Assembly: GCA_965603595.1 (NCBI GenBank)
Contig: CBFDDP010000001.1
Location: 17,751-81,750 of the forward strand
Origin: an uncultured bacterium
Lineage (GTDB): Bacteria > Spirochaetota > B62-G9 > DRHN01
Length of the DNA: 64,000 nucleotides
Direction: 5' to 3'
Shown here one piece after another: positions 1,985-33,652 of the stretch. The position numbers and the translations under genes were made by a program. The notes below the pieces were generated by a model. It was given only the letters and a program-made list of their open reading frames with translations, searched no databases and was not told the origin of the DNA. Each line of letters opens with the position of its first letter. Position 1 is the stretch's first letter.

Positions 1985-3709
1985 ATGGGCGAAAATATTG
2001 ACAAGCTGAGAGAAAAAACTGGTATCGATAAACTCGATCCAGATCAGAGGAAAAAGCTCTTCAGGGATTTCGTCGATCATGGCGGAGAAATCGTCACGGA
2101 GGAAAAACGAAAGGTGGCCTTGGGGTCCGCCAAAACCCCAATCGAGCGAAAACCTTCCGACAGGGGGGAGGAGAGGGAAAGACAGAGGCCGTCGACCGGA
2201 AAAACAACAGACAAGGTTACCCCGGGAACAGCTTCACGTACCATGGCTAAAAAAACGCTATGGGAAAAGAGGCCCAAGAAGAAAAACAGCCTTAAAATCT
2301 ATGTACATGGCATGCTGCTGCGGGTATTTGCCCTGAACGGCAACAAGTTCAGAGATAAATTTCTCGATGATTTCAGGGACACGGTTAAAAACCACCTTAT
2401 GAACCTCCACCTCCTCGTGAAATCATTTCTCAAGGGCTCGTCATCAATAAAAAAAACGATCATGACCCTTTCAACGGGCGAAAACAGCCTGTTCTACGAG
2501 ATCCTCTACAGGATGTCCATACTCTATGACGAACAGGAGTTCGAGGCGATCAGCAAGTCATTTTCCAACAAAACCATACCCAGCGGTCCCTACGTCGATA
2601 TCTACAAGCAATTTTTCAAGAAACTGTATATCCTTGGCCAGTACACCGATTTGTGTAAATTCTTCATTCAAAAATCGGTGGACCTGCAGCTCCAGGGAAA
2701 GAAAGTCGAAAAGCGCCTCGCGGGCCAGATGAAACCAAAGCTCAAAGCCGCTGTAAATGCGGTATTCATTGACTATCTTCCCCGATTGCACATCATTCTC
2801 TGTCAAATGGCCCGTGTCTATCTCCCACTCTACTCCCAGCAGCTCGACGATTATCTCAACTTTACCGAGCAGGACCGAATCGGTTACATAACCCGAATCG
2901 AGAAGAAGAAACGAATCGAAGAGCTGAGACGCATGAAGGAGTATATGAAACGAAAGCAGATGGAAGGACACGAGGAGGAGAAGGAGGAAGTGAAAGTTCC
3001 ACGACATGTGGAGCGGGGTTTTCGCTTAATCGATGAAGCAATCGATCGATTCGAAAAAAACTACACTGATGACGACGAGAAAAAAGTATACAGCCTCATG
3101 GAAAAAGACGACAAGCTCTACAGGACCGCGCTTCTCCTCGAGAGTTTCGACAAGGAATACTCTTTCATATTAACGACCGGCAAGATCTCCTTCAATATCG
3201 ATTATCAGGAGCAGAGGAAAATAGATGTCAAGGAAGAGCTGAATCATGCCTATCTCCTTCTCAGCGAAGCACGCCACGAGGTGAAGGACTACCTGGAAAC
3301 GATGGAGGAGGTTCACAAAACCGAACGCAATATACGGCTGACTATCCATCAGAAGTCTGAAATGCTCAGCACCCTTCAAAAAAAGAGGTCGGTACTCAGT
3401 AAAAACTCACGGAATAAAGTAGCAGAGACAATGGATGCCACTCATGACATCCTTTCAACAGTCATAAATGACTATAAGGGCCAACGTCGGCTTTTACAGA
3501 ACCCCGACGATCACCTTGACTTCACGAAAGACCTCGATTCAGCGAAGAAACTGCACGGCAGGAAAATCATTGAAGCAATTGTTGAGGCATTTCTCTTCTC
3601 ATCCGCCTTTCACTTCCTTCTCACCTACGGAGAGCTTGCAGGCAGCGGTCTCAACATCGAAGCCCAGCCCTCCGGTCAGGAGGATGATGTCCCTCAGACG
3701 CAAACCTGA
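1985..3709 (+). CDS. hypothetical protein, highly charged (K/E/R-rich), predicted coiled-coil, no TM segment
   Basis: Long ORF in a gap otherwise free of alternatives. No recognisable catalytic motif. Confidence 0.5.
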   Translation: MGENIDKLREKTGIDKLDPDQRKKLFRDFVDHGGEIVTEEKRKVALGSAKTPIERKPSDRGEERERQRPSTGKTTDKVTPGTASRTMAKKTLWEKRPKKKNSLKIYVHGMLLRVFALNGNKFRDKFLDDFRDTVKNHLMNLHLLVKSFLKGSSSIKKTIMTLSTGENSLFYEILYRMSILYDEQEFEAISKSFSNKTIPSGPYVDIYKQFFKKLYILGQYTDLCKFFIQKSVDLQLQGKKVEKRLAGQMKPKLKAAVNAVFIDYLPRLHIILCQMARVYLPLYSQQLDDYLNFTEQDRIGYITRIEKKKRIEELRRMKEYMKRKQMEGHEEEKEEVKVPRHVERGFRLIDEAIDRFEKNYTDDDEKKVYSLMEKDDKLYRTALLLESFDKEYSFILTTGKISFNIDYQEQRKIDVKEELNHAYLLLSEARHEVKDYLETMEEVHKTERNIRLTIHQKSEMLSTLQKKRSVLSKNSRNKVAETMDATHDILSTVINDYKGQRRLLQNPDDHLDFTKDLDSAKKLHGRKIIEAIVEAFLFSSAFHFLLTYGELAGSGLNIEAQPSGQEDDVPQTQT

Positions 3710-3807
3710 CCGAAAAACTGTTTTAACTTTTCAGCATTCATGGCTAAATTCGGTACACCGCCTGATAGGGAGTAAACCAAGCTGCATGAACGAGCGGAGA
3801 ACTATAG

Positions 3808-4896
3808 ATGAATAACAGCCGTGGTTTCGCCAGTGACAACAATTCGGGGATACACCCCGATGTTCTGCAAGCGATCACAGGCGCCAATAGAGGCCACTGC
3901 AGGGGATATGGGGATGATCCATACACCGCGGAGGCATTGAAGACATTCAAGGCAGTGTTTGGTGAAGATGTGGTGGTGTTTTTCGTGTGCACGGGCACGG
4001 GGGCCAATGTGCTCGGTTTGCGTGCGGCTGCTCAGTCATACCATGCAATCATCTGTGCTCAGTCTTCTCATCTTCACACCGATGAGTGCGGTGCACCTGA
4101 AAACTATGCAGGCTGCAAGGTAATAACCCTTCCCAGCGATGATGGAAAGATTGCCCCCCGACAGATAGAACCTCTACTCGAAAGCCGCGGAGATGAACAT
4201 CACTCCCAGCCCAAATTCATCTCTATCTCGCAACCCACGGAGTTCGGAACATTGTACACCGTCGAGGAAATCACCAATCTTGCGGATTTTGCGCATGCCA
4301 ACGACCTGATGCTCCATATGGACGGTGCTCGGTTGAGCAACGCTGCAGTGAGCCTGGGCTGCAGTCTGCGTGCAGTTTCAGGAGATGCGGGAGTTGATAT
4401 ACTCTCATTTGGCGGAACTAAAAACGGAATGATGATCGGTGAGGCGGTCGTGTTCTTTGACCCGGAAGTTGCCAATCATTTCAAGTACATCCGAAAACAG
4501 GGCATGCATCTGGTATCGAAGATGCGCTTCTTATCTGCCCAATTTACAGCCTATTTCAAGAATGACCTCTGGCTTCACAACGCCCGTCATGCAAACAGAA
4601 TGGCAGCACTGCTTGCACAGGAACTTGAAAATGTGCCCCAGTGCCGTATAACGCAGAAGGTCCATACGAACGCGGTATTCGTGGCTATGCCGTCAGAAAT
4701 TGTTGCAGAGCTGCAGAACCGCTGCTTCTTCTCTGTATACGACAGCACTAATACCGTTACCCGCCTCATGACCTCCTTTGACACCACAGAAGATGACATA
4801 CACGGTTTCATTTCTGACTTGCAGGAACTCCTCTCGAAAAGCAGTGTAGCAGATAAAAAAATAGCTAAAGGGAAGCACCATGAGCCCACCCAGTAA
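3808..4896 (+). CDS. ltaE: low-specificity L-threonine aldolase (PLP-dependent, beta-eliminating lyase fold)
   Basis: N-terminal [17 protein letters not shown] and the conserved [11 protein letters not shown]-lysine region typical of threonine aldolases. Confidence 0.75.
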
Positions 4897-6436
4897 TAGG
4901 CCTGACATACGGCAGGAGATAAATGAACTTTCTCTCCTGTTCGAGATCAGCCAGATACTTGAATCCAATATGGACCTCAGGGATGTGGTGGTGCCGGTTC
5001 TCAGGACAATATCGAACTATACAGGTACAGCCAGGGGTGTCATTACCCTGCTGAATCGTAAAACAGGCGAAATTTCTATCGAAGAGGCCGTGGGACTCTC
5101 CACCCATCAGCAGAAAAGGGGCCGGTACAGGCTCGGTGAGGGTATAACCGGAAAGGTTGTTCAATCCGGGCGTCCTGCAATTATTCCCCGCATATCGGAC
5201 GAGCCTCTGTTTCTTGACAAGACAAGAGCGAGGGAGAACATCGACTGGGAGGATGTATCATTTCTCTGTGTGCCCATCAAGATCGGCAACGAGGTAATCG
5301 GCACGCTGAGTGTGGACCGCCTCTTTAGCGATGCGGCGTCGCTCAACGAGGATGTGCGTCTCTTCTCGGTCATCGCCTCCATGATTTCACAGGCTGTGAA
5401 GATCAGACAGGAGGCACAGGAGGAACGTCAGAAGCTTCTGGAGGAGAATATACGACTGCAGGAGGAGCTGAAACACCGCTACCATCCCGCGAATATCATC
5501 GGCAACTCCAACGAGATGCAGGAAGTGTACGACCTCATACGACAGGTCGCTGACAGCGATACAACCGTCCTTCTCAGGGGGGAGAGCGGCACGGGTAAAG
5601 AGTTGGTTGCCCACGCCATCCATTACGCAAGCTCCAGGTCGCACAAGCCTCTTATCAAGGTCAATTGTGCCGCCCTGCCGGAAACAATTATCGAGAGTGA
5701 GCTCTTCGGTCACGAAAAGGGAGCATTCACAGGTGCACTCCATCAAAGGAAGGGGCGATTCGAGATCGCCCACGGCGGGACACTCTTCCTCGATGAGATC
5801 GGCGACCTGAGCATGATGACACAGATCAAGCTGCTTCGTGTACTGCAGGAAAGGGAGTTTGAACGGGTCGGCGGCGTGGAGACCATCAAAACGGACGTAC
5901 GTATCATTGCAGCAACCAATAGAAACCTCGAAGAGCTTATTGCCAAGAACCATTACCGGGAAGACCTCTACTACCGCCTGAACGTGTTTCCCATGCACAT
6001 ACCTCCCCTCAGAGAGAGGAAGACTGACATCCTGTTGCTCGCAGATTACTTTATTGAAAAGTACAGCAGGGCAGCGGGGAAAAACATTCGAAGGATCTCC
6101 ACGCCTGCCATTGATATGCTCATGGCCTATCATTGGCCGGGGAATGTCCGTGAGCTGGAGAACTGTATCGAGCGGGCTGTTGTTATGAGTAATGATGATG
6201 TCATTCACGGGCATCACCTTCCGCCTACTCTGCAAACTGCGGAGGCGAGCGGTACGACCATTAGGGGAACATTCGACGAGGCCCTTGAGAGTATCGAACG
6301 GGAACTGCTCATCGAGGCATTGAAATCTTCCCGGGGCAACATGGCAAAAGCGGCGCGGTCCCTCAATATCTCAGAACGCAGAATGGGCCTCAGAATCAAT
6401 AAATACGGTATTGATCCCAAGAGGTTTCATACATAA
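4880..6436 (+). CDS. sigma-54-dependent transcriptional activator with N-terminal GAF domain and C-terminal Fis-type HTH (NifA/NtrC-like, no receiver domain)
   Basis: AAA+ sigma-54 interaction motifs [15 protein letters not shown] and GAFTGA. GAF-like N-terminus. C-terminal [29 protein letters not shown]. Sits immediately upstream of glnB-amt-glnA. Confidence 0.85.
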
Positions 6437-6465
6437 ATGGTTCAGTGAACGTTTTATCCTACATA

Positions 6466-6506
6466 TATGTAGTCTTAAATCGTATATTCCTACATAAATG
6501 TAGCCC
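6466..6506. promoter_or_regulatory. pair of 14-bp palindromes (CTACATATATGTAG and CTACATAAATGTAG, centres ~25 bp apart): candidate upstream activator site
   Basis: Read directly in the intergenic region, about 80-120 bp upstream of the sigma-54 promoter. Confidence 0.4.
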
Positions 6507-6586
6507 TTCCTTGTCTGTAAAACTGTTCTCTCATGATTCATCTCTCTAACTCCTTATATATCATTAATTAAATTCTGTTTTATAAA

Positions 6587-6601
6587 TGGCACGGCACTTG
6601 C
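6587..6601 (+). promoter_or_regulatory. sigma-54 (-24/-12) promoter TGGCAC-N5-TTGC
   Basis: TGGCACggcacTTGCt matches the consensus TGGCAC-N5-TTGCA/T. It lies ~110 bp upstream of the glnB start and downstream of the palindromes. Confidence 0.6.
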
Positions 6602-6709
6602 TTAAATATTCGCTATGAATAGGTATTTCGGTGAGCATGGCATCGAAGTTCGCGGCAATTTTCTGATGATCAGAAATACGTAAGCCAATATTACCAAGGA
6701 GCCGAAACC

Positions 6710-7051
6710 GTGAAACTTATTACTGCATATATACAACCCCATAAACTGAACGATGTGAAGCAGGAACTATACAAGCAAGAGGTCTACAAGATCTCTGTTA
6801 CCAATGCACTCGGCTGTGGACAGCAAAAAGGCTACCACGAATCCTATAGGGGCGTCGACATTGAAGTGAATCTCCTGAAGAAGATCAGACTCGAGATAGC
6901 GGTCAACGAAAACTTCGTGCAGCGCACGATCGATGCCATCATACATGGTGCACACACGGGTGAAATCGGTAACGGCAAAATTTTCGTCACAGACCTTGTC
7001 GAGTGTGTCCGGATAAGAAGCGGTGAAACGGGGAATGTTGCCATTGGATAG
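6710..7051 (+). CDS. glnB: nitrogen regulatory protein P-II
   Basis: 113 aa, typical P-II sequence throughout ([19 protein letters not shown] ... GKIFVTDL). GTG start. Confidence 0.9.
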
Positions 7052-7189
7052 ATTACACCATGTCCGATTTTCTCACCCCAAAGTTTTACCTGTGACCGTA
7101 AAGGGTGTGGTTTTGAAATAAGTATTACTCTGTGTTCATTTCCTTTATAGAGAACAAAACCAGTAATCGGGGAGAGAAGATGAGAGGAA

Positions 7190-8529
7190 AAGCCTTCATC
7201 AGAAAAGTAGTATTAATGGCAACCAGTTCACTCGCCGTGATTTTACTGATCTGCCCGTGGGCACTGGCTGAGTCCACCGTGGAATTTACGGTGACAAGGG
7301 GGCTTGACACCGTCTGGGTCCTCTTTGCCGCAGTACTGGTTTTCTTCATGCAGGCGGGCTTCGGGATGGTGGAGGCCGGCTTCATCAGGGCAAAGAATGC
7401 ATGCAACATTCTCACAAAGAATTTTCTCGACTTCTGCATGGCATCATTCGGATTTTTTCTGTTTGGCTATGCAATCATGTTCGGTTCGGGCAACGGATTC
7501 ATCGGCCTGACGGGATGGTTCATGTATGGAGCTGAATCGGGTGCAGATATCCCCCTATTCGCATTCTGGCTTTTTCAAGCCGCATTCTGCGGTGCAGCAG
7601 CAACTATCGTTGCAGGCGGTATGGCCGAGAGGATGAAGTTTCCAGCCTATCTGGTCTACTCCTTCGTAATCTCGGCGTTTATCTACCCCATCGTCGGACA
7701 CTGGATCTGGGGAGGCGGATGGCTTGCGCAGCTCGGTTTTACCGATTTCGCCGGTTCAACAGTTGTACATTCGGTCGGCGGATTCGCGGCTCTTATCGGG
7801 ACTATACTCCTGAAACCCCGCATCGGCAAGTACGGTCCCGATGGAAAGGCAAACGCAATCACCGGTCACAACATTCCCATAGCATCGCTGGGTGTGTTCA
7901 TACTCTGGTTTGGCTGGTTCGGATTCAACGCAGGTTCGACCCTCAGCGTGGGAAACGGTGATCTCATTGCCCGTATTGCCATCAACACCAATCTAGCCGC
8001 TGCCCTCGGCGGTATCTTCGCTATGATCACTGTTTGGACTATGTTCGGTAAGCCCGACCTCTCAATGGCCATGAACGGGGCTCTGGCCGGACTTGTCGGC
8101 ATTACTGCACCCTGCGCCTTTGTGGACCCCTGGGCAGCCCTCGTTATTGGAGCCGTTTCAGGGGTCCTGGTGGTTTTCGGCGTCCTGCTGCTCGACAGGC
8201 TCCATATCGATGATCCTGTGGGCGCAGTCCCGGTACATGGATTTAATGGGATTTGGGGGACCATTGCGGTCGGACTCTTCGGCAGGGAAGCTCTCGGTCT
8301 TGCCCATAACGGCCTGTTCTACGGAGGAGGTGTTACACAACTCGGCACACAGGCGCTGGGAGTCATGATAGTGGTGTTATTCATGCTCGCTGCAATGGGC
8401 ATCGTGTTCAAACTCATCGATGTGACGATCGGCCTCAGGGTCAGCCGTGATGAAGAGCTCAGGGGACTCGACATCGGCGAGCACGGTATGGAATCCTATA
8501 CCGGATTTCAGATTTTTGCTACCAAATAA
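7190..8529 (+). CDS. amt: ammonium transporter Amt. The ORF-track start 7132 is GTG; the ATG at 7190 (MRGKAF, preceded by GGGGAGAG) is the more likely start.
   Basis: Signal-like N-terminus and Amt family motifs (DTVWVLFAAVLVFFMQAGFGMVEAGFIRAKN; DFAGSTVVH). Multiple TM segments. Confidence 0.88.
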
Positions 8530-8571
8530 ACAATCAGCATATTACCTTACAATATCTTTGGAGGTGTGACA

Positions 8572-9906
8572 ATGGCGCAGAAAGACATTGATTATGTCAT
8601 GAAAATGGTGAAGGAAAAGGAAGTGAAGTTCATACGCCTCTGGTTTACCGACGTACTCGGATTTCTTAAAAGTTTTGCAATAACTCAGGACGAGTTTGAA
8701 GGAGCCCTGCACGAGGGGATGGGTTTCGATGGTTCATCCATTGAGGGGTATGCACGGATCGAAGAGAGCGACATGATGGCAATGCCCGATCCCTCGACAT
8801 TTACCATCCTCCCCTTCTCAGGTGGTGAGGACACGGTGGTTGCACGGATGTTCTGTGACATTCAGGAACCGGACGGAAAACCCTACTGTGGCGATCCAAG
8901 GTACGCACTGCGGCAGAACCTGGCAAAGGCCAAGGAGATGGGCTACACCTTGTATGTGGGGCCGGAGCTCGAATTCTTCTACTTTGCCGATTCGACCCCA
9001 GCCACTAAAACCCTGGATGCAGGCGGCTACTTCGACCTGACACCCCTCGACGTGGCAAGCAACCTCAGAAGGGACACTATCCTTTCCCTGCAGAAAATGG
9101 AGATTCCGGTCGAATTCAGTCATCATGAGGTGGCCCCCTCACAGCACGAGATCGATCTCAGGTATGCAGAGGCGCTGCATATGGCAGATTCGGCAATGAC
9201 CTACCGCCTCACGGTTAAGGAAATTGCCATGAAACACGGAGTGTATGCTTCGTTTATGCCCAAGCCGCTCTTCGCACAGAACGGCTCAGGCATGCACACC
9301 CATCAGTCGCTGTTCGAGGGCAGCAAGAACGCGTTCTTTGATGCCAACGACGAGTATCATCTGTCGAAGATCGCAAAATCCTATATCGCCGGTCTTCTCA
9401 CACATGCGAGAGAGATCTGTCTCGTGGTTGCACAGTGGGTGAACTCTTACAAACGCCTTGTCCCCGGTTACGAAGCTCCCGTGTACGTCTCCTGGGCACG
9501 ACGAAACCGCTCCGCCCTCGTCAGGGTTCCCATGTACAAGGTCGGTAAGGAGAAGGCGACGAGAGCCGAGTTCCGCTGCCCTGACCCGGCATGCAACCCC
9601 TATCTCGCATTCTCCGTGATGCTTGCCGCAGGCCTGAAGGGAATAAGGGAAGGGTATGAGCTTCCGGAACCGGTTGAGGAGGACATATTCCACATGACAG
9701 AAGTTGAGAGGCAGAAGAGAGGGATCATCTCCCTTCCCGGAAGCCTCGGTGAGGCAATCGCTGAGACTGAAAAAAGCGATCTGGTTCGTGAATCTCTCGG
9801 TGACCACATATTCGAAAAGTTTATCGACAACAAGAAGATTGAGTGGGACAATTACCGTGTGCATGTGAGCCAGTTCGAGCTCGAGAAGTACCTACCCATT
9901 CTGTAA
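8572..9906 (+). CDS. glnA: glutamine synthetase, type I (short GSI-alpha-like, ~444 aa). The ATG at 8572 is 7 nt after GGAGG; the ORF-track GTG start is at 8566.
   Basis: GS beta-grasp and catalytic regions (FTDVLGFLKSF; GPELEFFYF; NGSGMHTHQSLF). Last gene of the glnB-amt-glnA operon. Confidence 0.88.
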   Translation: MAQKDIDYVMKMVKEKEVKFIRLWFTDVLGFLKSFAITQDEFEGALHEGMGFDGSSIEGYARIEESDMMAMPDPSTFTILPFSGGEDTVVARMFCDIQEPDGKPYCGDPRYALRQNLAKAKEMGYTLYVGPELEFFYFADSTPATKTLDAGGYFDLTPLDVASNLRRDTILSLQKMEIPVEFSHHEVAPSQHEIDLRYAEALHMADSAMTYRLTVKEIAMKHGVYASFMPKPLFAQNGSGMHTHQSLFEGSKNAFFDANDEYHLSKIAKSYIAGLLTHAREICLVVAQWVNSYKRLVPGYEAPVYVSWARRNRSALVRVPMYKVGKEKATRAEFRCPDPACNPYLAFSVMLAAGLKGIREGYELPEPVEEDIFHMTEVERQKRGIISLPGSLGEAIAETEKSDLVRESLGDHIFEKFIDNKKIEWDNYRVHVSQFELEKYLPIL

Positions 9907-10062
9907 GGGAGTTTATGCAATTTATGTTGGAGTGAGGAGGGTCCGGATCGTACCGAAGCGCCGGCAATGACAGCAGCGGCCCGCCTTCCACGTACATTAT
10001 GAGAGATCAGGTGCACAAGTTTTTTAGAAAATGAAATTGATGCGTGTACAGGAATAATACTC

Positions 10063-12099
10063 TCAAAATGAAATCATCGTATTGATGCCAAAGGAATCTA
10101 TTGGCCGCCACTGTTGGGCTGCATCGTCAAACTGATAGGTCCGTTTGACCCTGAGAGAAAGGGTGAGAAGCGGTGCCGCCTGATAGAAGATATCAGCCTT
10201 GAACAGGGTACTCTCATCAAAGGGCTCCTTGAAAATACTGCTGAAGTTGTCGCTCCGGTCATAGGTTATCTGTCCCCAGGTTTTTGGAAGGAGGCCCTCT
10301 TCCATCCTCAGGTAAATCTGACCCTCTTCGATGTTTTCTGTGCTGGTGCCGGTGTAGCGATTATACTGTCCATACCCGAGACCCATTGCAAGTTTCATAT
10401 CGAAGAGCCGCACACCACCTGACAGATAGAATCCGGAACTATCTGCACTTGTGTAGGAAGGATCATTCTGTGCGAGAATCAGGTTGAGAAGTTCCTGCTG
10501 ATAGGTCAGACGGTTGTTGTCCCAGTTGAAATCGATGATTCCCGGCTCGTAATAATCACGGATAAATCGGTATTCTGCACGGTAATCCACCATGGATATG
10601 ACTGTACCGGTCAGACCCAGTGCAATTCCAAACCCATCGAGAAACTCTATCTTACCCTCATTTACGCCGGTATCGGCAAGAGCCGGATGCAGCTCATTGT
10701 ACTGATAGCCCAGTTTCGCAGCATCCGCGTAGATCTCCATGGTGAAGGAGTCGAGCTGGGTAATTGGAAATCCCACGTCCAGGCCCACGATGAATATGCG
10801 GGGAAGCTGGTTTTCATCGGTTGTACCCGGAGGCCACGAGGCGCTGTTCGGCTTGGGCCAGTCGTGAAATATCGTTCCGCCAATGGAAAGGGGTACCTTG
10901 CCCCCCAGCGGTCGCAGGTACAATCTGGCCGCGGAAGTCTGAAGCCCCCTGTCGACATGCGCGACGAGGGTTTCGACGCCTACAATCGAGAGATCGGCAC
11001 CCAGCACTGCGCCGGTGCTCACCTCCTTCGGGAAGTAGAGCATGTTGGTGTAGTCGTTCACGATGAATCCCTGATGCAGCTTCACCCGCTCGAGGCCGCC
11101 CATTCTGAAGTAGAGGGGGTCGCCTTCCTCGCCATACCGCATATAGTAGATCTTGACGAGAAGATCATGAATTATGTCTTCAAAGTCTGTAAAATCCCAC
11201 TCATTCTTGTTGTGCCACTTGTTGAATGAGAAGAGGCCATTTTCCGGTAAGAATATGGCTGGAAGATAGAGTCCGACCCCGAACCTGCCCCTGTTGTACT
11301 CAGTCAAAAAGGCCCATCGATTGTAAAAAGCATCTTCGATTGTCAGGCTTCCAAAGGTCGCACCGAGACTGATTTTCCTTTCTCCCTTGTCAAAGGTGGT
11401 TTCAGGCTTCTCCTCAGGCTGTTCCTCCACGATCTCCTCCGCCTCTTCAGAAAAAGGGCTGAACTCCTCGTCCCACTCCTGCCATACTTTCTTGGGGATT
11501 CTGGTTGCCGATTCTGCAAGGCCGTCTGAAAGTACCGTGCTGAATTGCCCCTTTTTAATGACCTGGGGTTCGAAGGCACCTGTTATACTCTCGAGTGATA
11601 CAGAACCGTCGAATACAAGAACCTGCGCCTGTACGCCGTCAAAGAATATTCCGTAGGTGGTCCCGCGGACCCCTGCCAGTGCCGTTCCTGATCGAACATC
11701 AAATTCGGAATCCGATGTAGTGAGCTTGGCCACTGTTGCCTTCATCTTGCCAAACATGAGTTTGAATTTGCTGCGCTTTTTACCCGAATCCTCGTTGTAG
11801 GATATGTCCTCAATCTTGAAGACAGAGGTATGTGAGATCTTAACTATGCTTCCATCGTGGAGTGACAGCTCACACTGCCCGTCCCTCCCGGTCCTCACGA
11901 TGGTACCCTGAGGGAGCTGCATATCGAGCTCGGCAATCTGGAAATCTTCCACGTTGTTGTCCGGAGGGTTGTCGACATCCACGTTTCCCACAAGGTAGGT
12001 GATAACAGCGGGAATCTGCGTCATGCTCTCCTGTGCAAACCCGTACCCGAAAGAGAGGATACTCAAGAGAGCTACACCTATGTATAAAACCTTCCTCAT
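10063..12099 (-). CDS. predicted outer-membrane protein with N-terminal FecR-like domain. Likely start MRKVLYIGVALLSILSF at 12099 (RBS GGGGAGGAAG); ORF-track start is 12141.
   Basis: Signal peptide, FecR-like segment (VGNVDVDNPPDN ... IVRTGRDGQCELSLHDGSIVKISHTSVFKI). Y/N/D/G-rich C-terminal region ending in an aromatic residue (..NTMISF), as in beta-barrel OMPs. Confidence 0.6.
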   Translation of the reverse strand: MRKVLYIGVALLSILSFGYGFAQESMTQIPAVITYLVGNVDVDNPPDNNVEDFQIAELDMQLPQGTIVRTGRDGQCELSLHDGSIVKISHTSVFKIEDISYNEDSGKKRSKFKLMFGKMKATVAKLTTSDSEFDVRSGTALAGVRGTTYGIFFDGVQAQVLVFDGSVSLESITGAFEPQVIKKGQFSTVLSDGLAESATRIPKKVWQEWDEEFSPFSEEAEEIVEEQPEEKPETTFDKGERKISLGATFGSLTIEDAFYNRWAFLTEYNRGRFGVGLYLPAIFLPENGLFSFNKWHNKNEWDFTDFEDIIHDLLVKIYYMRYGEEGDPLYFRMGGLERVKLHQGFIVNDYTNMLYFPKEVSTGAVLGADLSIVGVETLVAHVDRGLQTSAARLYLRPLGGKVPLSIGGTIFHDWPKPNSASWPPGTTDENQLPRIFIVGLDVGFPITQLDSFTMEIYADAAKLGYQYNELHPALADTGVNEGKIEFLDGFGIALGLTGTVISMVDYRAEYRFIRDYYEPGIIDFNWDNNRLTYQQELLNLILAQNDPSYTSADSSGFYLSGGVRLFDMKLAMGLGYGQYNRYTGTSTENIEEGQIYLRMEEGLLPKTWGQITYDRSDNFSSIFKEPFDESTLFKADIFYQAAPLLTLSLRVKRTYQFDDAAQQWRPIDSFGINTMISF

Positions 12100-13581: not shown

Positions 13582-16500
13582 TTAGAAATAGATCTCCATC
13601 TTGAGGCCAAGCTCGAAACCAAGGGACGTCAGCAGGTTTCCGCTGCTGTAGTCGGGGGTTACCTTCTCTTCAACACCAAACTGGAACCTGGAAAAGGCGG
13701 TGAATATAAGGCTGTCGGTGATTTCATACTCCGTTTCATGTTCCAGGGTCAGGCGCAGGGGGATATTACTGAATCCTTCCGACTGCTCCCTCTCAGTAAT
13801 GGTATAAACATTCTCAATCGTCAGAACCTCCAGATTCTTGATTGAACTTTTGAACTCCGGATCCGGTTTCACAAAGAGAAATCCCTTTTTCGGGAATACC
13901 TCCCAGAGATAACTCAGCCTGAATTCGTTTTCGATCGTATCCGATGGCGGTACGAGAGCTACACTGGAATCGCTATCGGGAACACCAGGAATGAGTGCAT
14001 AGTCCGAGTCACCTTTATGCTGCCTCGTTCTGGTATACTCGACCTGGTCATATATCTTCAGGCCCTGAAACTCGGTACGCAGGGAGTTGTACTCGGTTGT
14101 CAGGGAGAAGCTGTTATTCAGTACTTTGGTATCAAACTGCCTTTCACCCTCATAATCAAAGGTCATCACTATGTTGTTCTTGAAGTATTTCTCGGCATGG
14201 GAGAGGGGTACGTTGTACTGGATGGAGGCTGTCCAGCCCCTGCTCTGCCTGTATGATTCCCCCTCCCTGCGTGTTTCCCCGTTTATGCCAAGGGTAACCC
14301 AACCTGGTATAAACCAACGGTCATACCCAAAGGCCACATCGAGAATATAACTGTTGAAGAGGGAGTTCACAGAGTTACCTGATATTTCAGAGCTGCCCTT
14401 GTAAATGTTCACGGCATCGTAATCCTTATCCCTTCCCCCGGGATGCATATAGTAAAAGGGGGGCATGAACATATACCTGTAGCTCTCCAGATACATATCT
14501 CTCCGGGTGAGAGATTCCGATACAGTCTTATAGTCACCCCTGAACTCGCGGCGCATCAGGGGAGTGACCTCGATCCTATCGATTCCAAGAAAGTAAAAGG
14601 GAATGGCCATCTCGAAATCGTGATTGTACACCGTATCCCGGTCTGCTTCATCAAAGGAGAAGTTCTTCTGAGAGTAATCAGTATCAAAGATCAGGTTGAA
14701 TCCCACAATCTTCATGAGGGGTATACTGATGTCCAACCCGTATCCGTCGGTTGTGGAAGCAAGTGTGCCGTTTTCGATGGTCTCGCCCACAGGCGTGAAA
14801 AGTGTGCTCAGGCGGTTGATATATGCACTGCCCCAGCTCTCAGCTTCAGGAACAGAGAGTCCGGTGTACTGCTGGTTCCGTAATAAATAGGTTGCTATGA
14901 TGTTACTGTTCCAGCTGAAGGATAGATCAAACCGGTCCTGCTGGTCCACAACGGCATCCTGCTCCCGCGTGGGATCCAGTGATTGCGAGGGTATGGTCTC
15001 ATAGGTGTCAGTGTAGAGCCAGAAACGATTGAAGGTGTACGCCTGGGACAAACCGAAGGGAAAATCGACCTGTTCTGAGAAAAGCAGCGAATCGTCATAG
15101 GCGGTCTGGTCATAGTGCTGATAATCGGTGGGATTGAGATCTATCTCTTTGCTGTTCGTTACATATCTGTCATAGGAATGTCTGATAGAGGGTATGTATG
15201 CATTATCGAATGCGAGCTCCAGGGTATGGGACTGCTGTGTACGATAGTCATCGGTGCTCAAATCGCCGGGTAAATCCTCCTCGTTTCTAATGGTGGTGAT
15301 GTCCTCCCGGCTCAGGTACACCTCTGTACCGAGCACTTTCAACAGATCAATGTCCAGACCCGTATAGAGACGGTCGTTCCGCTCATCAGTACTGGTATAG
15401 AACTTCCCCTCCTGTCGTTCAAATCCAAGCAGCAGCGATGGATTGCTTATGAGGGGAAACTCTGCAACCGAGAGCACATCTCCCTTATAGCCGAAGGTCC
15501 CCTCAGTGATAAAGGCCGTGTCAAAATACCCTTCACTGTTTCGCACGAACCATTCATCGAGCCAGATTTCCAGGGGCTGAGTTACATCACCGCTGTTGGC
15601 ATAGAAACCGAACTGAATCTCGGCGAGCCTGTTAAAAATTCGGAGATCACCCGATTTCGTCATGTTGATAACATCCTGGCCATTCAACTCTACCGTATAG
15701 GGCGATTTCAGATGGACATCGATGCGATTCCATCCCTGTACGATCTGTGATCCCGGGATGACAGTACGAAGCTCCTCATTCTGGCTGCTCACGAACGAGA
15801 GTGTGAAGTCCAAATTGGACGGCACCGTCTCGGATTCCGGAAGGTAGAGAAACATGGAGTAGTCGCCGTAGAAAGAGATATCCATTGGAATGGCGAAACG
15901 GCGGGCGACCGCTGCTTCCTCTCCCTGATCGAGCTGCGTCATTGCAGTGGGGTCAAAATAGACCTTCAGCACCTTCTCGACGAGATTGTTTCGGCTGCGG
16001 TAGGAAGCGTCCCCGTGGAGCTCGTCGTAGAGACCCGGATAATCCTTAGACAGTGCATGGTCATCAACATCGGGGTTCTCGTCCACAGATACTTCGCTGA
16101 TGTTGAGATAATCCTTGGATTCGTTCACCAGGCTCGAACCCGAAAACCAGATCCTGTTGATGACGACCTTACCTGTTACATCCTGAGCAGGAGGCGGATT
16201 AACCGTTGTGACGGTCAGCCGGAGAGCTGCAGCGCTCTGAAATACCTCCGGTTTACTCTCGATCAGGGAGAGTATGTCCACCGATAGATACCTCCAGCCA
16301 CTATTCCCGGTTGAAAACTGTTGTATATAGTCGGTCGTGTCACCCCGTATCAGCACGCCTGTATCAGGGCCTGTATCGAGTATGCCGTTCTTGTTCAGGT
16401 CCTCCGAATCTATGCGGCCGTTACTCGATCCCTCCCTGTCAGTACCGATGACTGTTGGATTCCCGTTCCAGGGTGTGATTGGAAAACCGGCATCATTGAT

Positions 16501-24800: not shown

Positions 24801-25114
24801 GGATGAAGTGCTACAGCGAGAACACCTCTCTGAAGATATGGGCGGCCAAATTCGTGTCACGCCACCCCAATCTCATTGCCCTTGATCTCTCTTCATTCCG
24901 CTGCGGACACGACGCCCCGCTCTACTCACTACTCGACGACCTGTTCAGCCAGTCGGCCTCACCGTATTTTACCTTTCATGAGATCGACGAAAACAGACCG
25001 GAGAGCTCTATCAGACTGCGTGTGGAAAGCATTCACTACTTTCTGCAGCGCTATCGGGAAGAGCTGTCGCAGAGAGCGGAGGGTTCATGGCAACGGTCAT
25101 TGTCAGTGGTTTGA
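21839..25114 (+). CDS. CoA-substrate-specific enzyme activase-type protein: two BadF/BadG/BcrA/BcrD (ASKHA) ATPase modules plus a conserved C-terminal domain. Likely start MFALGLDVGST at 21839; ORF-track start is 21740.
   Basis: Two DxGST ATPase phosphate-1 motifs (LGLDVGSTTVKAV and MGIDGGSTSTKGV). Each is followed by a GGQD box (ELGGQDSKYI; DVGGQDIKII). C-terminal 400 aa conserved in the activase-of-unknown-substrate family. Confidence 0.75.
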   Translation: MFALGLDVGSTTVKAVLLDDENMIRWQRYERHRTRQLDKVMDFFALIRENLGDPDLHVFTTGSGGKQVARLMGVRHYQEVNALGTAVEHLHQNIASVFELGGQDSKYITWRGSNGRFVAMNDRCAGGTGATIDRILLKLCITQRSLLDIAYDPQMLYPVAGKCGVFAETDLNSLQKQGVATEALLLSLFQAIVEQNLTVLARGHMPVPPLLLLGGPNVFFPALRGTWQARLESLWQERDIAFDRDAVRVPHNALYYGALGTALLGASIESGEPAIGCSTFMDRIAESREKGNPEGTLKSGGPPLLHTEEERRHFSGTYMSRPHSGTYPPAGKELHVYMGIDGGSTSTKGVILDTRENVMETAYLISQGNPVDDTRSILKELHEKVRQRGVKLNVRGIGFTGYAKDLLSAVFGGDTAVVETVAHTLGALKYYPGCDVVCDVGGQDIKIILLKNGAIRDFRLNTQCSAGNGYYLQSTAERFGYTVDEYAEAAFTAGTIPEFNFGCAVFLEADIVNFQQLGWKPEEIMAGLAQVLPLNVWLYVVREPNLSRLGRHFVLQGGTHNNLAVVKAQQDFIKSRVRDAQIHLHPYKEAAGAIGAAIEARRTLSSKIYTESGKMTSHIPASSFIGFDSIDLVQYSVEKNEDTRCTRCGNRCMRTFISVSAGDYRNSHIIANCERGAETDENRKSAAGSPSSREDAPHFVHLSNRMMFATRPDRTPAERSSSSYHIRRNKLLEKAVIGIPRVLGIYSTGLFFRSYFEALGAGKILFSGYTTPELYRKTAGRGSIDPCFPSKIAIAHVYDLMSRDAVTHIFFPCIRMTRGEIYGAPYHWACTALAATPESVKAAFTLNGNEFHDRGIHYVDPVCDMAEWDVFERQLYSSLHPLFRISKGENRRAMDTALRLWESSLANLQARAERVILDLEQKSGIGIVLLGRPYHNDPGVNHGILDALNSHGYPLFTIESLPRSGQLVERIFEQESERGHPMDIRDLWMKCYSENTSLKIWAAKFVSRHPNLIALDLSSFRCGHDAPLYSLLDDLFSQSASPYFTFHEIDENRPESSIRLRVESIHYFLQRYREELSQRAEGSWQRSLSVV

Positions 25115-26466
25115 CCAGAGCCCACGAAACCCTTTTAGAGGGCCTGTTCAGGTTTCTCGGCCAGGACGTTGTTCGTCTCCCCGAGCCTGACGGTGAAGCA
25201 CTCAAGATAGGCAGGATATACTGCAACAGGGGACAGTGCAACCCTGTGTACTACACTGCCGGCAATCTCATCCGATTCCTCCAGTGTCTCAGGACTTCCG
25301 GGGAGAAGGATATAGAGAAGAAATATTACTACCTGACAGCCGGAGCCTGTGGCCCCTGCAGATTCGGCATGTATGAGATTGAATACCGCAAGGCTCTCCA
25401 CGATGCCGGGTTTCCAGGGTTTAAAGTTGTGGGTGTACAGCAGAATGCGGCCCTGGTACAGGACCTGCACAATCTGGGATTCCGCTTCGAAAAGAGGCAT
25501 TTGAGCCGGTTCATCAACGCCATCATTCTCGCAGACCTGCTGAACAACCTCTACTATAAAATTAAACCCTATGAAGTCATACCTGAAAGTGTCGACCGAT
25601 GGCGAAACAGCACACTCGACCTGCTATACGCTGTATTCAGATACAACAGATCCATCACCCCATCACTGAAACAGATCCGAGATACATTCAACAGCCTCGA
25701 GCTCGATTATTTGAGACCGAAACCGAAGGTCAAGATAATCGGAGAAATTTTTTCACACCTCCATGAAGGCGACGCGAGCTACGGCCTACCCTCATGGCTC
25801 GTCGAGGAGGGCGCAGAGCCTGTGGTTGAGCCCCTCAGCAACTGGCTTGAGTACCTCTTCTGGGAAAAGATACAGTTTACCCGGGACCGGGCATTTCGAG
25901 GTAGGCTTAAAGCCCTAAGGAAGATACTTCCTGCCTGGCTGCTTAAGACAAGTATACGTCTGCATTTCGCCTATTTCAGATTCATTCTGAAAAACAGACC
26001 CGATAAACTCGCCCGTCAGCGACAGCTTGCACGATACGCTGCCCCATACTACCATGTCAGGCTTATAGGCGGCGAAGGGCACATGGAGGCAGGAAAGCAT
26101 ATATATGCGGTACGCAAACATCAGGCACACATGGTAATATCCATCAAGCCCTTCAGCTGTATGCCCTCGACGCAGAGTGATGGTGTGCAAACGAAAATTG
26201 CCGAGGACATGAAGGGAAGCCTCTTCGTTTCGGTGGACACCACAGGAGATGCGGAGGTGAATGTGAAGAGCCGCATCCTCATGAAGCTTCAGGTCGCACA
26301 GAAGAGAGCTGAATCCGAGTTCAGAGAAGTCCTGGAGAGGAAAAAACTGACCGAAGCGAGACTGAAGGTGTTGAGGGAGAGGACCCGTCTGCAGTCATTA
26401 CCCATGCGTAAACATCGGCGCAGATACATCGCTACAGCCACACGAGTTCTTACCACACTGGTCTGA
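25087..26466 (+). CDS. 2-hydroxyacyl-CoA dehydratase (HgdB/D-component)-like partner of the activase
   Basis: 459 aa. Cys motif AGACGPCRFG. Overlaps the end of the activase gene, consistent with translational coupling. Confidence 0.6.
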   Translation: MATVIVSGLTRAHETLLEGLFRFLGQDVVRLPEPDGEALKIGRIYCNRGQCNPVYYTAGNLIRFLQCLRTSGEKDIEKKYYYLTAGACGPCRFGMYEIEYRKALHDAGFPGFKVVGVQQNAALVQDLHNLGFRFEKRHLSRFINAIILADLLNNLYYKIKPYEVIPESVDRWRNSTLDLLYAVFRYNRSITPSLKQIRDTFNSLELDYLRPKPKVKIIGEIFSHLHEGDASYGLPSWLVEEGAEPVVEPLSNWLEYLFWEKIQFTRDRAFRGRLKALRKILPAWLLKTSIRLHFAYFRFILKNRPDKLARQRQLARYAAPYYHVRLIGGEGHMEAGKHIYAVRKHQAHMVISIKPFSCMPSTQSDGVQTKIAEDMKGSLFVSVDTTGDAEVNVKSRILMKLQVAQKRAESEFREVLERKKLTEARLKVLRERTRLQSLPMRKHRRRYIATATRVLTTLV

Positions 26467-33548: not shown

Positions 33549-33652
33549 ACTGCTTCCTCTTACTTTCACTATTTAGCTGTTACTCTTAACATACCTCCAG
33601 GCGGATCACATGTGAATTCGCATTATACCTATAATTTCCCCTAATGAGAATT

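What the first reader, a model, noticed from the sequence alone, without database searches (positions are those of the whole stretch)
4880..9906. Nitrogen-assimilation unit: GAF-domain sigma-54 activator followed by glnB-amt-glnA under a perfect sigma-54 promoter
The window contains a complete regulatory circuit. A receiver-less GAF + AAA+ + HTH enhancer-binding protein is followed by an intergenic region with a textbook TGGCAC-N5-TTGC promoter, then P-II, Amt and a short type-I GS in one operon. Gene order glnB-amt is inverted relative to the common amtB-glnK arrangement. The EBP probably senses a small molecule directly through its GAF domain, NifA-style, rather than through a two-component partner. 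A GAF-EBP dedicated to gln genes is not the textbook NtrBC arrangement.
Basis: partly seen in the sequence, partly recalled or inferred. Interest (0 to 1): 0.5.

Follow-up and report, generated by a model that had tools for sequence, protein, structure and literature searches.

The report
NifA-like activator driving ammonium-assimilation operon
A spirochaete gene cluster in which a sensor-activator protein (auto-annotated as the nitrogen-fixation regulator NifA) sits next to, and very probably switches on through a sigma-54 promoter, the genes for ammonium uptake and glutamine synthesis; it is a well-supported but fairly ordinary regulatory unit from a widespread, little-studied regulator family.

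Summary
Present are a 518-aa GAF + AAA+ + HTH enhancer-binding protein (4880-6436), an exact TGGCAC-N5-TTGC promoter (6587-6601, unique in 64 kb), and P-II, Amt and type-I GS genes.

Comparative evidence supports the circuit. Of 52 related loci with enough downstream DNA, 25 have amt/P-II/GS right after the activator. Of those 25, 20 carry a strict -24/-12 promoter and 22 a CTAC-N6-GTAG site, against 1 and 4 of the 27 without such genes. Paired sites are always 29-32 bp apart, with the proximal one about 80-105 bp before the promoter.

The protein passes NCBI's NifA model. However, it lacks the NifA-type DNA-binding helix, there is no TGT-N10-ACA site, and no nif gene lies in the window. It belongs to a separate clade with 70% or more identity across phyla and an [14 protein letters not shown] linker. 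Its GAF domain is closest to Aquifex Nlh1.

One-component GAF activators of nitrogen assimilation are already predicted (Desulfovibrio DVU1949, Nlh1) or shown (Leptospira EbpA). This is a new member of a known kind. The ligand and the presence of rpoN remain untested.

The parts
3808..4896 (+). PLP-dependent threonine-aldolase-like gene (Beta_elim_lyase). Its end overlaps the EBP start by 17 nt, so it is probably co-transcribed with the EBP.
   Evidence: Pfam PF01212 E 2e-52. The same neighbour precedes the EBP in spirochaete relatives L081 and L164-L167. Co-transcription is inferred from the overlap.
4880..6436 (+). One-component sigma-54 enhancer-binding protein (518 aa). Domains: GAF sensor (aa 32-173), long linker helix (aa 155-200), AAA+ (aa 206-372, with Walker A GESGTGKE and GAFTGA), lid (aa 378-459), HTH_8 DNA-binding domain (aa 469-509).
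   Evidence: It scores 561.4 bits on TIGR01817 NifA (cutoff 528.85). The GAF domain is closest to Aquifex Nlh1 4g3k (E 2e-27).
6206..6247 (+). Codons for the clade-specific linker motif [14 protein letters not shown] (aa 443-456), between the AAA+ lid and the HTH.
   Evidence: Invariant in 13 cross-phylum homologues. Absent from A. vinelandii NifA and from the proteobacterial and Desulfovibrio-type NifA-like loci. Used as a family-specific probe.
6431..6444 (.). Degenerate third copy of the palindrome (ATACATAAATGGTT), overlapping the EBP stop codon.
   Evidence: Aligns with full sites in L165 and L081. Sequence.
6459..6472 (.). Distal enhancer (UAS) palindrome CTACATATATGTAG, centred about 146 bp upstream of the predicted transcription start.
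   Evidence: Exact, with 0.00 expected. Conserved block in 7 spirochaete loci. The consensus CTAC[A/C]-N4-[T/G]GTAG comes from 63 sites.
6490..6503 (.). Proximal enhancer (UAS) palindrome CTACATAAATGTAG, 31 bp from the distal one. It starts 97 bp before TGGC.
   Evidence: In the 21 promoters with paired sites, the spacing is always 29-32 bp.
6555..6578 (.). A/T-rich block between enhancer and promoter, conserved only among the spirochaete relatives. It may be a bending or architectural-protein site.
   Evidence: Alignment A3. An IHF-consensus test across phyla found it in only 2 of 42 promoters, so this role is weakly supported.
6587..6601 (+). Sigma-54 (-24/-12) promoter TGGCACGGCACTTGC. The predicted transcription start is near 6612.
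   Evidence: Unique exact match in the window. TGGCA-N6-TTGC is invariant in 7 aligned relatives. Such promoters are 42-fold enriched after EBP genes of this family. The start position is inferred from the standard -12 spacing.
6612..6709 (+). Predicted 5' leader of about 98 nt, with RBS AAGGAG at 6696-6701. It contains a non-conserved perfect palindrome at 6660-6676.
   Evidence: No Rfam hit. Fold z-score -0.37. The leader is not conserved in relatives.
6710..7051 (+). P-II signal protein (113 aa, GTG start) of a subtype without the Tyr51 uridylylation site (Ile51; T-loop [19 protein letters not shown]).
   Evidence: PF00543 E 2e-23. It scores below the GlnB/GlnK equivalog cutoffs. T-loop comparison.
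7180..8529 (+). Ammonium transporter Amt (ORF opens at 7132; the likely start is ATG 7180, after GGGGAGAG), with an N-terminal signal-like segment.
   Evidence: PF00909 E 2e-129; TIGR00836 455 bits against a cutoff of 343. Sequence.
8572..9906 (+). Type-I glutamine synthetase, short (alpha-like) form (ORF opens at GTG 8566; the likely start is ATG 8572, after GGAGG).
   Evidence: TIGR00653 518.5 bits against a cutoff of 429. Sequence. No second -24/-12 promoter lies in front of it, so it is read as the third gene of the operon (inferred).

Best explanation
This is a self-contained nitrogen-assimilation control unit of a spirochaete.

The EBP (4880-6436) binds as dimers to the two CTACA-N4-TGTAG palindromes, which lie 31 bp (three helical turns) apart at 6459-6503; a weak third site may sit at 6431-6444. 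When its N-terminal GAF domain is switched on, it releases the AAA+ domains to assemble into a ring. The ring contacts sigma-54 RNA polymerase bound at TGGCAC-N5-TTGC (6587-6601), about 115-146 bp downstream, and uses ATP to open the promoter. Transcription then starts near 6612 and reads through P-II, Amt and GS as one operon, raising ammonium uptake and assimilation when nitrogen is scarce.

Shown here: the parts, their statistical non-randomness, and the conservation of the activator-enhancer-promoter-nitrogen-gene arrangement across many lineages.

Inferred: DNA binding by this protein, the transcription start, operon continuity and the signal.

The most likely signal is nitrogen/carbon status. 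It could be read by the GAF domain directly (2-oxoglutarate, as in A. vinelandii NifA) and/or through the co-encoded Tyr51-less P-II protein. The GAF/linker-helix repression mechanism is taken from Aquifex Nlh1.

The protein is a NifA-like paralogue or clade, not a nif-specific NifA. In diazotrophic relatives the same enhancer and promoter also precede nifH, so the family acts as a general nitrogen regulator.
For: - **Domains and motifs.** Domain architecture and intact catalytic and sigma-54-contact motifs.
- **Non-randomness in the window.** A unique exact -24/-12 promoter and two exact palindromes with 0 expected. No sigma-70 consensus lies in the 6437-6709 intergenic region.
- **Footprint among close relatives.** In 7 spirochaete loci with 76-96% identical EBPs, the only conserved intergenic blocks are the two palindromes, an AT block and TGGCA-N6-TTGC.
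- **Family-wide enrichment.** CTAC-N6-GTAG occurs at 2.16 per kb in the 280 nt after the EBP stop against 0.26 per kb elsewhere. The strict promoter occurs at 1.17 against 0.028 per kb-strand.
- **Link to nitrogen genes.** 25 of 52 loci have amt/P-II/GS next to the EBP. Of these, 20 have the promoter and 22 a UAS, against 1 and 4 of the 27 loci without such genes.
- **Geometry.** 42 of 73 strict promoters have a UAS 50-260 nt upstream. All 21 paired sites are spaced 29-32 bp.
- **Other targets.** The same UAS and promoter precede second GS or amt operons, and nifH in L142.
- **Gene context across phyla.** Spirochaetota, Planctomycetota and Thermodesulfobacteriota.
- **GAF homology.** To Nlh1 and the NifA GAF, with a long predicted linker helix at aa 155-200.
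- **Literature.** 2-OG binding by the NifA GAF (PMC12998190). The Nlh1 mechanism and its proposed nitrogen-assimilation role (PMC9866876). A similar predicted motif, TTACA-N4-TGTAA, for the nitrogen regulon of DVU1949 (PMC4641369, supplement).
Against: - No rpoN gene lies in the 64-kb window, so sigma-54 in this genome is assumed.
- There are no experimental data for this clade. Binding of this protein to the palindromes is inferred from co-occurrence only.
- About half of the family's loci have unrelated genes downstream, so adjacency is not universal.
- 5 of 25 nitrogen-linked loci lack a strict promoter match.
- No clear terminator follows GS, and the 128-nt P-II/Amt gap could hold an unrecognised internal promoter.
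- The ligand is unknown even for the structurally solved homologue Nlh1 (PMC9866876).
- The AlphaFold model was poor for the AAA+ part.
Confidence: 0.8

Rival explanations
1. The protein is a genuine nif-specific NifA that regulates an unlinked nitrogenase regulon. Its position next to P-II/amt/glnA is incidental, and that operon has another activator.
For: It scores above the trusted cutoff of NCBI's NifA equivalog model (561.4 against 528.85), and public records name its relatives NifA. Some family members sit next to nifH (L142, L013, L029, L018).
Against: - No nif gene lies in the 64 kb.
- No TGT-N10-ACA lies in 6381-6600.
- The DNA-binding helix and linker differ from canonical NifA.
- The enhancer and promoter sit directly before P-II and track amt/P-II/GS across lineages.
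- The hosts include lineages named Planctomycetota, Candidatus Hydrogenedentes, Blastocatellia and Akkermansia. That these are mostly non-diazotrophs rests on my own knowledge.
Confidence: 0.05
2. The palindromes are not EBP sites. They could be a hairpin or terminator at the end of the EBP transcript, or operators for an unrelated regulator. In that case the sigma-54 promoter is served by a distant EBP, or the operon is sigma-70 driven.
For: The palindromes start 23 nt after the EBP stop. As RNA, region 6437-6530 folds better than shuffles (z -2.9).
Against: - No U-tract follows.
- The arms are invariant in sequence (CTAC/GTAG in 63 sites) rather than covarying, while the centre varies.
- The same sites occur before second operons that are not preceded by an EBP gene.
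- The 29-32 bp spacing and the 80-130 bp distance to -24/-12 promoters are typical enhancer geometry.
- Terminator and sigma-70 scans found nothing in the intergenic region.
- The low fold energy is expected from two copies of one palindrome.
Confidence: 0.07
3. The circuit is the same, but the nitrogen signal is not read by a small molecule in the GAF pocket. The co-encoded P-II protein (itself sensing 2-oxoglutarate/ATP/ADP) binds the GAF domain and switches the EBP, as GlnB/GlnK do for NifA in Azospirillum, Herbaspirillum and Rhodospirillum.
For: P-II genes accompany the EBP in most nitrogen-linked loci. A distinctive Tyr51-less P-II subtype (75-84% identical) travels with it across lineages. 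P-II/GAF control of NifA is established in the literature (reference lists of PMC9866876; PMC12093980 for AnfA).
Against: Some loci have the EBP with GS only and no P-II (L164, L090, L098, L156). Others carry ordinary Tyr51 GlnK-type P-II. No interaction could be modelled with the tools available. The GAF pocket region is highly conserved, which also fits a small ligand.
Confidence: 0.3

Closest known systems
Aquifex aeolicus Nlh1 (NifA-like homolog 1; GAF structures 4G3K/4G3W)
   Same: A one-component GAF + AAA+ + HTH sigma-54 activator from a non-diazotroph. It is the closest solved GAF domain (E 2e-27, roughly 40% identity, alignment running into the linker helix). It is proposed to control nitrogen assimilation rather than fixation, with a GAF dimer and coiled-coil linker holding the AAA+ domains inactive until a ligand binds (PMC9866876, citing Batchelor 2013).
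   Different: Only the GAF domain could be compared. The targets, DNA site and ligand of Nlh1 are unknown. Whether Nlh1 carries the [14 protein letters not shown] linker was not tested.
Canonical proteobacterial NifA (e.g. A. vinelandii, PDB 9QQ6 chain C)
   Same: The same three-domain architecture and full-length homology (E 5e-116). It passes TIGR01817. The NifA GAF domain binds 2-oxoglutarate (PMC12998190). Some clade members precede nifH.
   Different: - No nif genes or nifL nearby.
- No TGT-N10-ACA; the site here is CTACA-N4-TGTAG.
- A different DNA-binding helix...[19 protein letters not shown] against ...AARLLGMTPRQIAYRIQ.
- The [14 protein letters not shown] linker is absent from NifA.
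- The target is P-II/amt/glnA.
Desulfovibrio vulgaris DVU1949 predicted nitrogen regulon (Kazakov et al. 2015, PMC4641369)
   Same: A single-component EBP predicted by comparative genomics to activate sigma-54 promoters of amt-glnB-glnD, glnA, glnN and others. Its predicted site, tTTACA-N4-TGTAAa, shares the TACA-N4-TGTA core.
   Different: DVU1949 is not adjacent to its targets. Its DNA-binding domain (GWIQHKAARELGLTPRQMGYRI) groups with canonical NifA, and the Desulfovibrio-type loci L020 and L023 lack the linker motif. It is therefore a distant homologue and functional analogue, not an orthologue. It is also only a prediction.
Leptospira interrogans EbpA-RpoN pathway
   Same: A spirochaete system in which a GAF-containing one-component EBP and sigma-54 directly activate amtB. 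It is needed for growth at low nitrogen, with experimental DNA binding and genetics (PMC12655853, summarising Hu et al. 2017).
   Different: EbpA is FhlA-like with two GAF domains. Its reported targets are amtB and two lipoprotein genes, not a P-II/amt/glnA operon next to the regulator.
Enterobacterial NtrBC-glnAp2 / glnK-amtB system
   Same: The same logic: a sigma-54 promoter with paired upstream enhancer sites drives GS, P-II and Amt under nitrogen limitation.
   Different: NtrC is a phosphorylated response regulator with a partner kinase. Here there is no receiver domain and no kinase nearby. The P-II here lacks Tyr51, and GS is the short form, probably not adenylylated.

Membership tests
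Bacterial sigma-54 enhancer-binding proteins (PF00158) | AAA+ domain with Walker A/B and the GAFTGA sigma-54 contact loop | tested here: met
   PF00158 E 1e-74. [14 protein letters not shown] and DEIG are present and invariant in homologues.
Bacterial sigma-54 enhancer-binding proteins (PF00158) | C-terminal Fis-type HTH DNA-binding domain and cognate upstream enhancer sites | tested here: met
   HTH_8 at aa 469-509. Paired palindromes about 100-130 bp upstream of the promoter are conserved across loci. Physical binding was not tested.
Bacterial sigma-54 enhancer-binding proteins (PF00158) | Presence of rpoN (sigma-54) in the same genome | not testable with these tools
   No rpoN among the window ORFs scanned. 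The rest of the genome is not available.
NifA (TIGR01817, nif-specific activator) | Score above the curated equivalog cutoff | tested here: met
   561.4 bits against a cutoff of 528.85.
NifA (TIGR01817, nif-specific activator) | Genomic and functional link to nif genes | tested here: not met
   No nif gene in 64 kb. The neighbours are P-II/amt/glnA. In the family, amt/P-II/GS follow the EBP in 25 of 52 loci, and nifH is adjacent in only 4 loci fetched.
NifA (TIGR01817, nif-specific activator) | Enhancer TGT-N10-ACA (recalled from established NifA literature) | tested here: not met
   None in 6381-6600. The conserved site is CTACA-N4-TGTAG.
NifA (TIGR01817, nif-specific activator) | Canonical NifA DNA-binding region (GWVQAKAARLLGMTPRQIAYRI type) | tested here: not met
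   Alignment to A. vinelandii NifA and to proteobacterial NifA loci shows a different recognition region and a clade-specific linker.
Nlh1-like GAF-regulated activators (Aquifex) | Single N-terminal GAF domain homologous to Nlh1, joined to the AAA+ domain by a long signalling helix | tested here: met
   4g3k E 2e-27 over aa 16-189. Predicted continuous helix at aa 155-200 with pLDDT about 70-87.
Nlh1-like GAF-regulated activators (Aquifex) | Ligand-released repression of AAA+ assembly | not testable with these tools
   Needs biochemistry. The mechanism is taken from PMC9866876.
NtrC (TIGR01818) | N-terminal receiver domain phosphorylated by NtrB | tested here: not met
   No Response_reg hit. 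The TIGR01818 match covers only aa 171-456 and scores 357 against a cutoff of 559.
Sigma-54 promoter | GG at -24 and GC at -12 in TGGCAC-N5-TTGC, upstream of a gene and downstream of enhancer sites | tested here: met
   Exact match at 6587-6601, unique in the window, and conserved in relatives.
GlnB/GlnK-type P-II | P-II fold family | tested here: met
   PF00543 83 bits against a cutoff of 25.
GlnB/GlnK-type P-II | T-loop Tyr51 uridylylation site and an equivalog-level score | tested here: not met
   Position 51 is Ile (numbering by alignment to E. coli GlnB recalled from memory). It scores 104 and 100 bits against cutoffs of 181 and 202.
Type I glutamine synthetase (TIGR00653) | Score above the cutoff, with both GS domains | tested here: met
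   518.5 against 429.15; PF03951 + PF00120. The alpha subtype and the lack of an adenylylation Tyr are inferred from length and sequence only.
Amt ammonium transporter (TIGR00836) | Score above the cutoff over the full domain | tested here: met
   455.5 against 343.3.

The most novel reading that the evidence does not exclude
The EBP may represent a distinct, very highly conserved clade (70% or more identity across Spirochaetota, Planctomycetota, Hydrogenedentes and Thermodesulfobacteriota, with more distant members in Acidobacteriota, Bacteroidota and Verrucomicrobiota) that is systematically auto-annotated as NifA. On this reading it is in fact the master nitrogen regulator that takes the place of NtrBC in these phyla.

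It would bind paired CTACA-N4-TGTAG enhancers 30-31 bp apart. It would drive amt, P-II, GS and, in diazotrophs, nifH. It would travel as a horizontally mobile cassette with a Tyr51-less P-II partner, and its GAF domain would read 2-oxoglutarate or glutamine directly.
Probability: 0.4. Interest if true: 0.55.

Novelty: new member of a known kind. Interest (0 to 1): 0.38.

Why it matters
Nitrogen control is well understood mainly in Proteobacteria (NtrBC, NifLA), Firmicutes (GlnR/TnrA), cyanobacteria (NtcA) and archaea (NrpR). For spirochaetes other than Leptospira, and for planctomycetes, acidobacteria and many sulfate reducers, the regulator is essentially unassigned.

This window, with its relatives, gives a concrete and testable candidate: a defined protein clade, a defined DNA site with fixed geometry, and defined target operons.

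It also flags an annotation problem. That can mislead metagenomic inferences of nitrogen-fixation potential.

The unit itself is otherwise an ordinary sigma-54 nitrogen-assimilation operon.

Tried and rejected
- **RNA element in the leader.** No Rfam family anywhere in the window. The leader 6612-6712 folds no better than shuffles (z -0.37) and is not conserved. Rejected.
- **IHF site between enhancer and promoter.** The WATCAANNNNTTR-like consensus occurs in only 2 of 42 UAS-promoter spacers. Only a lineage-specific AT block remains.
- **Canonical NifA enhancer TGT-N10-ACA.** Absent.
- **Other regulon members in the window.** No other exact palindrome and no convincing second -24/-12 promoter.
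- **Genome-contig scan with the full-length alignment.** A metagenome scan seeded on the clade-specific HGHHLPPT motif replaced it.
- **Exact-sequence look-up of the window's EBP.** Found no contig, so the source genome, rpoN and nif content could not be checked.
- **GAF-only search of 1.8 billion representatives.** Giant multi-GAF proteins and fragments dominated (281 hits at E 1e-30 or better). Not useful for family size.
- **AlphaFold2 model from 13 sequences.** Good for the GAF domain, linker helix and HTH but poor for the AAA+ domain (mean pLDDT 60.6). No fold search was run on it.
- **Batchelor et al. 2013 (Nlh1).** Could not be read. It is cited only through the review PMC9866876.
- **Sigma-70 promoter and terminator scans of 3600-10300.** At background level, with nothing in the intergenic region.

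Full report
**1. What is in the window**

- The EBP is at 4880-6436 (518 aa). Its Pfam domains are GAF (aa 32-173), Sigma54_activat (206-372), AAA_lid_14 (378-459) and HTH_8 (469-509), with no receiver domain.
- The next ORFs are a P-II protein (6710-7051), an Amt ammonium transporter (ORF 7132-8529) and a type-I glutamine synthetase (ORF 8566-9906). All are above curated thresholds for the general families.
- The ribosome-binding sites suggest real starts at ATG 7180 (Amt) and ATG 8572 (GS).
- The EBP start overlaps the end of an upstream threonine-aldolase-like PLP enzyme gene by 17 nt.
- The rest of the 64 kb encodes flagellar rod proteins, a Borrelia_P13-like protein, a V-type ATPase, glycolytic enzymes, an Lhr-like helicase and other housekeeping genes. 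There is no rpoN and no nif gene.
- Gene content and the closest relatives indicate a spirochaete.

**2. The non-coding signals**

TGGCACGGCACTTGC at 6587-6601 is the only exact TGGCAC-N5-TTGC in the window on either strand, against 0.05 expected.

Two exact copies of CTACAT-N2-ATGTAG lie at 6459-6472 and 6490-6503, against 0.00 expected with none in 100 shuffles. A degenerate third copy (6431-6444) overlaps the EBP stop codon.

With the usual -12 spacing the transcription start is predicted near 6612. That puts the palindrome centres about 115 and 146 bp upstream, which is normal enhancer geometry (inference).

No sigma-70-like promoter or terminator was found in the 6437-6709 intergenic region. 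No Rfam family matches anywhere in the window. The predicted 98-nt leader is not unusually structured (z -0.37).

**3. Is the arrangement more than adjacency?**

The EBP has very close homologues, 70% or more identical over the full length. They occur in records named Spirochaetota, Planctomycetota, Candidatus Hydrogenedentes, Thermodesulfobacteriota and Pseudomonadota, and almost all named ones are called 'NifA'. An alignment of 13 of them shows 76% mean column identity and an invariant linker, [14 protein letters not shown], between the AAA+ lid and the HTH.

Gene context with precomputed Pfam labels gave the following:
- A spirochaete MAG has EBP, P-II, Amt, GS (L081).
- A Planctomycetota MAG has EBP, an unknown gene, Amt, P-II, GS, GS (L082).
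- A complete Thermodesulfobacteriota genome has Glu-synthase and GDH, then EBP, Amt, P-II (L083).

A first genome scan was too generic to be useful. I therefore seeded a metagenome scan on the clade-specific linker, which gave 80 loci. The results were:
- Among 52 loci with at least 1.5 kb after the EBP gene, 25 have amt/P-II/GS starting within 1.6 kb on the same strand.
- Of those 25, 20 have a strict TGGC-N7-TTGC promoter, 22 have a CTAC-N6-GTAG site (at most 1 mismatch) and 19 have both.
- Of the 27 loci without such genes, only 1 has the promoter and 4 have the site.
- Site density in the 280 nt after the EBP stop is 2.16 per kb against 0.26 per kb elsewhere in the loci. Promoter density is 1.17 against 0.028 per kb-strand.
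- Across all fetched loci, 42 of 73 strict promoters have a site 50-260 nt upstream.
- In all 21 cases with two sites the spacing is 29-32 bp, mostly 30-31. The proximal site usually starts 80-105 nt before TGGC.
- The 63 sites give the consensus C-T-A-C-(A/C)-N4-(T/G)-G-T-A-G, with invariant arms and a variable centre.
- The same enhancer-plus-promoter module also precedes second operons inside the loci (GS in L082, L093, L097, L098, L116 and L138; a second amt in L102 and L110). In L142 it precedes nifH.

At short range, seven spirochaete loci with 76-96% identical EBPs were aligned. The only conserved intergenic blocks are the two palindromes, an AT-rich block and TGGCA-N6-TTGC. The leader is not conserved.

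This is the pattern expected if the palindromes are this EBP's own binding sites and the promoter is its target.

**4. What the protein is and is not**

It exceeds the trusted cutoff of NCBI's NifA equivalog model (561.4 against 528.85 bits). Its best full-length solved relative is A. vinelandii NifA (9QQ6 chain C, E 5e-116).

Three defining NifA features nevertheless fail:
- There is no nif linkage in the window.
- There is no TGT-N10-ACA enhancer.
- The DNA-binding region is different, and the family linker is absent from A. vinelandii NifA. It is also absent from proteobacterial NifA loci and from the Desulfovibrio-type loci.

The GAF domain is closer to Aquifex aeolicus Nlh1 (4G3K, E 2e-27) than to the NifA GAF (8JRC, E 7e-19). 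The model predicts a continuous helix at aa 155-200 joining the GAF and AAA+ domains (the AAA+ part of the model is unreliable).

Nlh1 has been proposed to control nitrogen assimilation rather than fixation. In the proposed mechanism a GAF dimer and coiled-coil linker hold the AAA+ domains inactive until an unknown ligand binds (PMC9866876). I therefore file the protein as a NifA-like (Nlh1-like) one-component EBP, not as nif-specific NifA.

**5. Mechanism**

Shown:
- the parts and their statistical non-randomness;
- the conserved architecture across lineages.

Inferred:
- EBP dimers bind the paired palindromes on the same face of the helix, three turns apart.
- Under nitrogen limitation the GAF domain releases the AAA+ domains, which oligomerise.
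- The oligomer remodels sigma-54 holoenzyme at 6587-6601.
- Transcription from about 6612 runs through P-II, Amt and GS. No second -24/-12 promoter lies before GS, but continuity was not tested.

The signal is open. 2-oxoglutarate binding to the GAF domain is established for A. vinelandii NifA (PMC12998190), and P-II control of the GAF domain for other NifA and AnfA proteins (PMC9866876, PMC12093980).

The P-II encoded here lacks Tyr51 (Ile51). It belongs to a subtype (T-loop [19 protein letters not shown]) that accompanies the EBP in several lineages at 75-84% identity. This is compatible with a P-II partner role but does not prove one.

**6.

The 'inverted' glnB-amt order is real but evolutionarily labile:
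- L165, L081 and L094 have P-II then Amt.
- L166 and L167 (82-84% identical EPBs) have Amt then P-II.
- L164 (96% identical EBP) has lost both genes, leaving about 25 codons of P-II after the promoter.

The unit is also not conceptually unprecedented:
- Kazakov et al. predicted that the single-component EBP DVU1949 controls amt-glnB-glnD, glnA, glnN and others in Desulfovibrionales. The predicted motif is TTACA-N4-TGTAA, which shares the core found here (PMC4641369). Its DNA-binding domain groups with canonical NifA, so it is an analogue rather than an orthologue.
- Leptospira EbpA (two GAF domains) with RpoN activates amtB experimentally (PMC12655853).

**7. Verdict**

This is a new, well-delimited member of a known kind of system, namely sigma-54 control of nitrogen assimilation by a one-component GAF activator.

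The added value is threefold:
- a clade-level definition of the enhancer;
- evidence that a very conserved, cross-phylum 'NifA' clade is mainly an ammonium-assimilation regulator;
- the annotation caveat that follows from that.

Untested and decisive are rpoN in the genome, physical binding, the transcription start and the ligand.

Noticed in passing
L164:3798-4175 (relative with 96% identical EBP): The P-II and amt genes are deleted. About 25 codons of P-II ([21 protein letters not shown]...) remain after the conserved enhancer and promoter, and GS follows directly.
   Followed up: partly
window 6710-7051: The P-II protein has Ile at position 51 instead of the uridylylated Tyr, and Gln38 instead of Arg38. 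The same T-loop subtype recurs next to this EBP family in several lineages at 75-84% identity.
   Followed up: partly
window 6660-6676: A perfect 8+8 palindrome, TTTCTGAT-g-ATCAGAAA, lies in the predicted leader between promoter and RBS. It is not conserved in relatives, and the leader is not unusually structured. It could be an operator for a second regulator or chance.
   Followed up: partly
L083:3078-7352: In a complete Thermodesulfobacteriota genome the EBP-amt-P-II unit lies beside an NrpR-like gene (PF08461 + PF01995), a glutamate synthase domain gene and a glutamate dehydrogenase gene. Two different nitrogen regulators may therefore coexist there.
   Followed up: no
L142:3373-4433; also L013, L029, L018: Family members at 47-62% identity sit next to nifH. 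In L142 nifH is preceded by CTACGCGAACGTAG and TGGCAG-N5-TTGCA at the usual distance. In L029 the nifH upstream region carries TTTACATTTTTGTAAA, which resembles the DVU1949 motif.
   Followed up: partly
window 4880-9906 vs L082:8001-15649: The whole cassette is unusually similar between the spirochaete window and a Planctomycetota MAG (EBP 72%, P-II 77%, Amt 65%, GS 77% identity). This suggests horizontal transfer of the module or a mis-binned contig.
   Followed up: no
L082:9720-10755; L093, L099, L100 (first gene after the promoter): In several loci a gene of about 270-355 aa, starting with a signal-peptide-like sequence and with no Pfam hit on record, sits between the sigma-54 promoter and amt. 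It may be an ammonium-related outer-membrane or periplasmic protein. It is absent from the window.
   Followed up: no
window 3808-4896: A threonine-aldolase-like PLP enzyme gene overlaps the EBP start by 17 nt. It is conserved upstream of the EBP in the spirochaete relatives (L081, L164-L167), so the regulator is probably the second gene of a two-gene operon.
   Followed up: partly
window 13582-18909 (-), 40222-41652 (-), 25087-26466 (+): Large ORFs (1775, 476 and 459 aa) have no Pfam match. The 1775-aa ORF lies downstream of two FecR-domain or unknown genes that are also syntenic in L081.
   Followed up: no
window 31684-33569 (-): Two adjacent lactate/malate dehydrogenase paralogues (314 aa each) overlap by 4 nt. 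A one-mismatch TGGCAC-N5-TTAC lies inside the first (32586), probably by chance.
   Followed up: no
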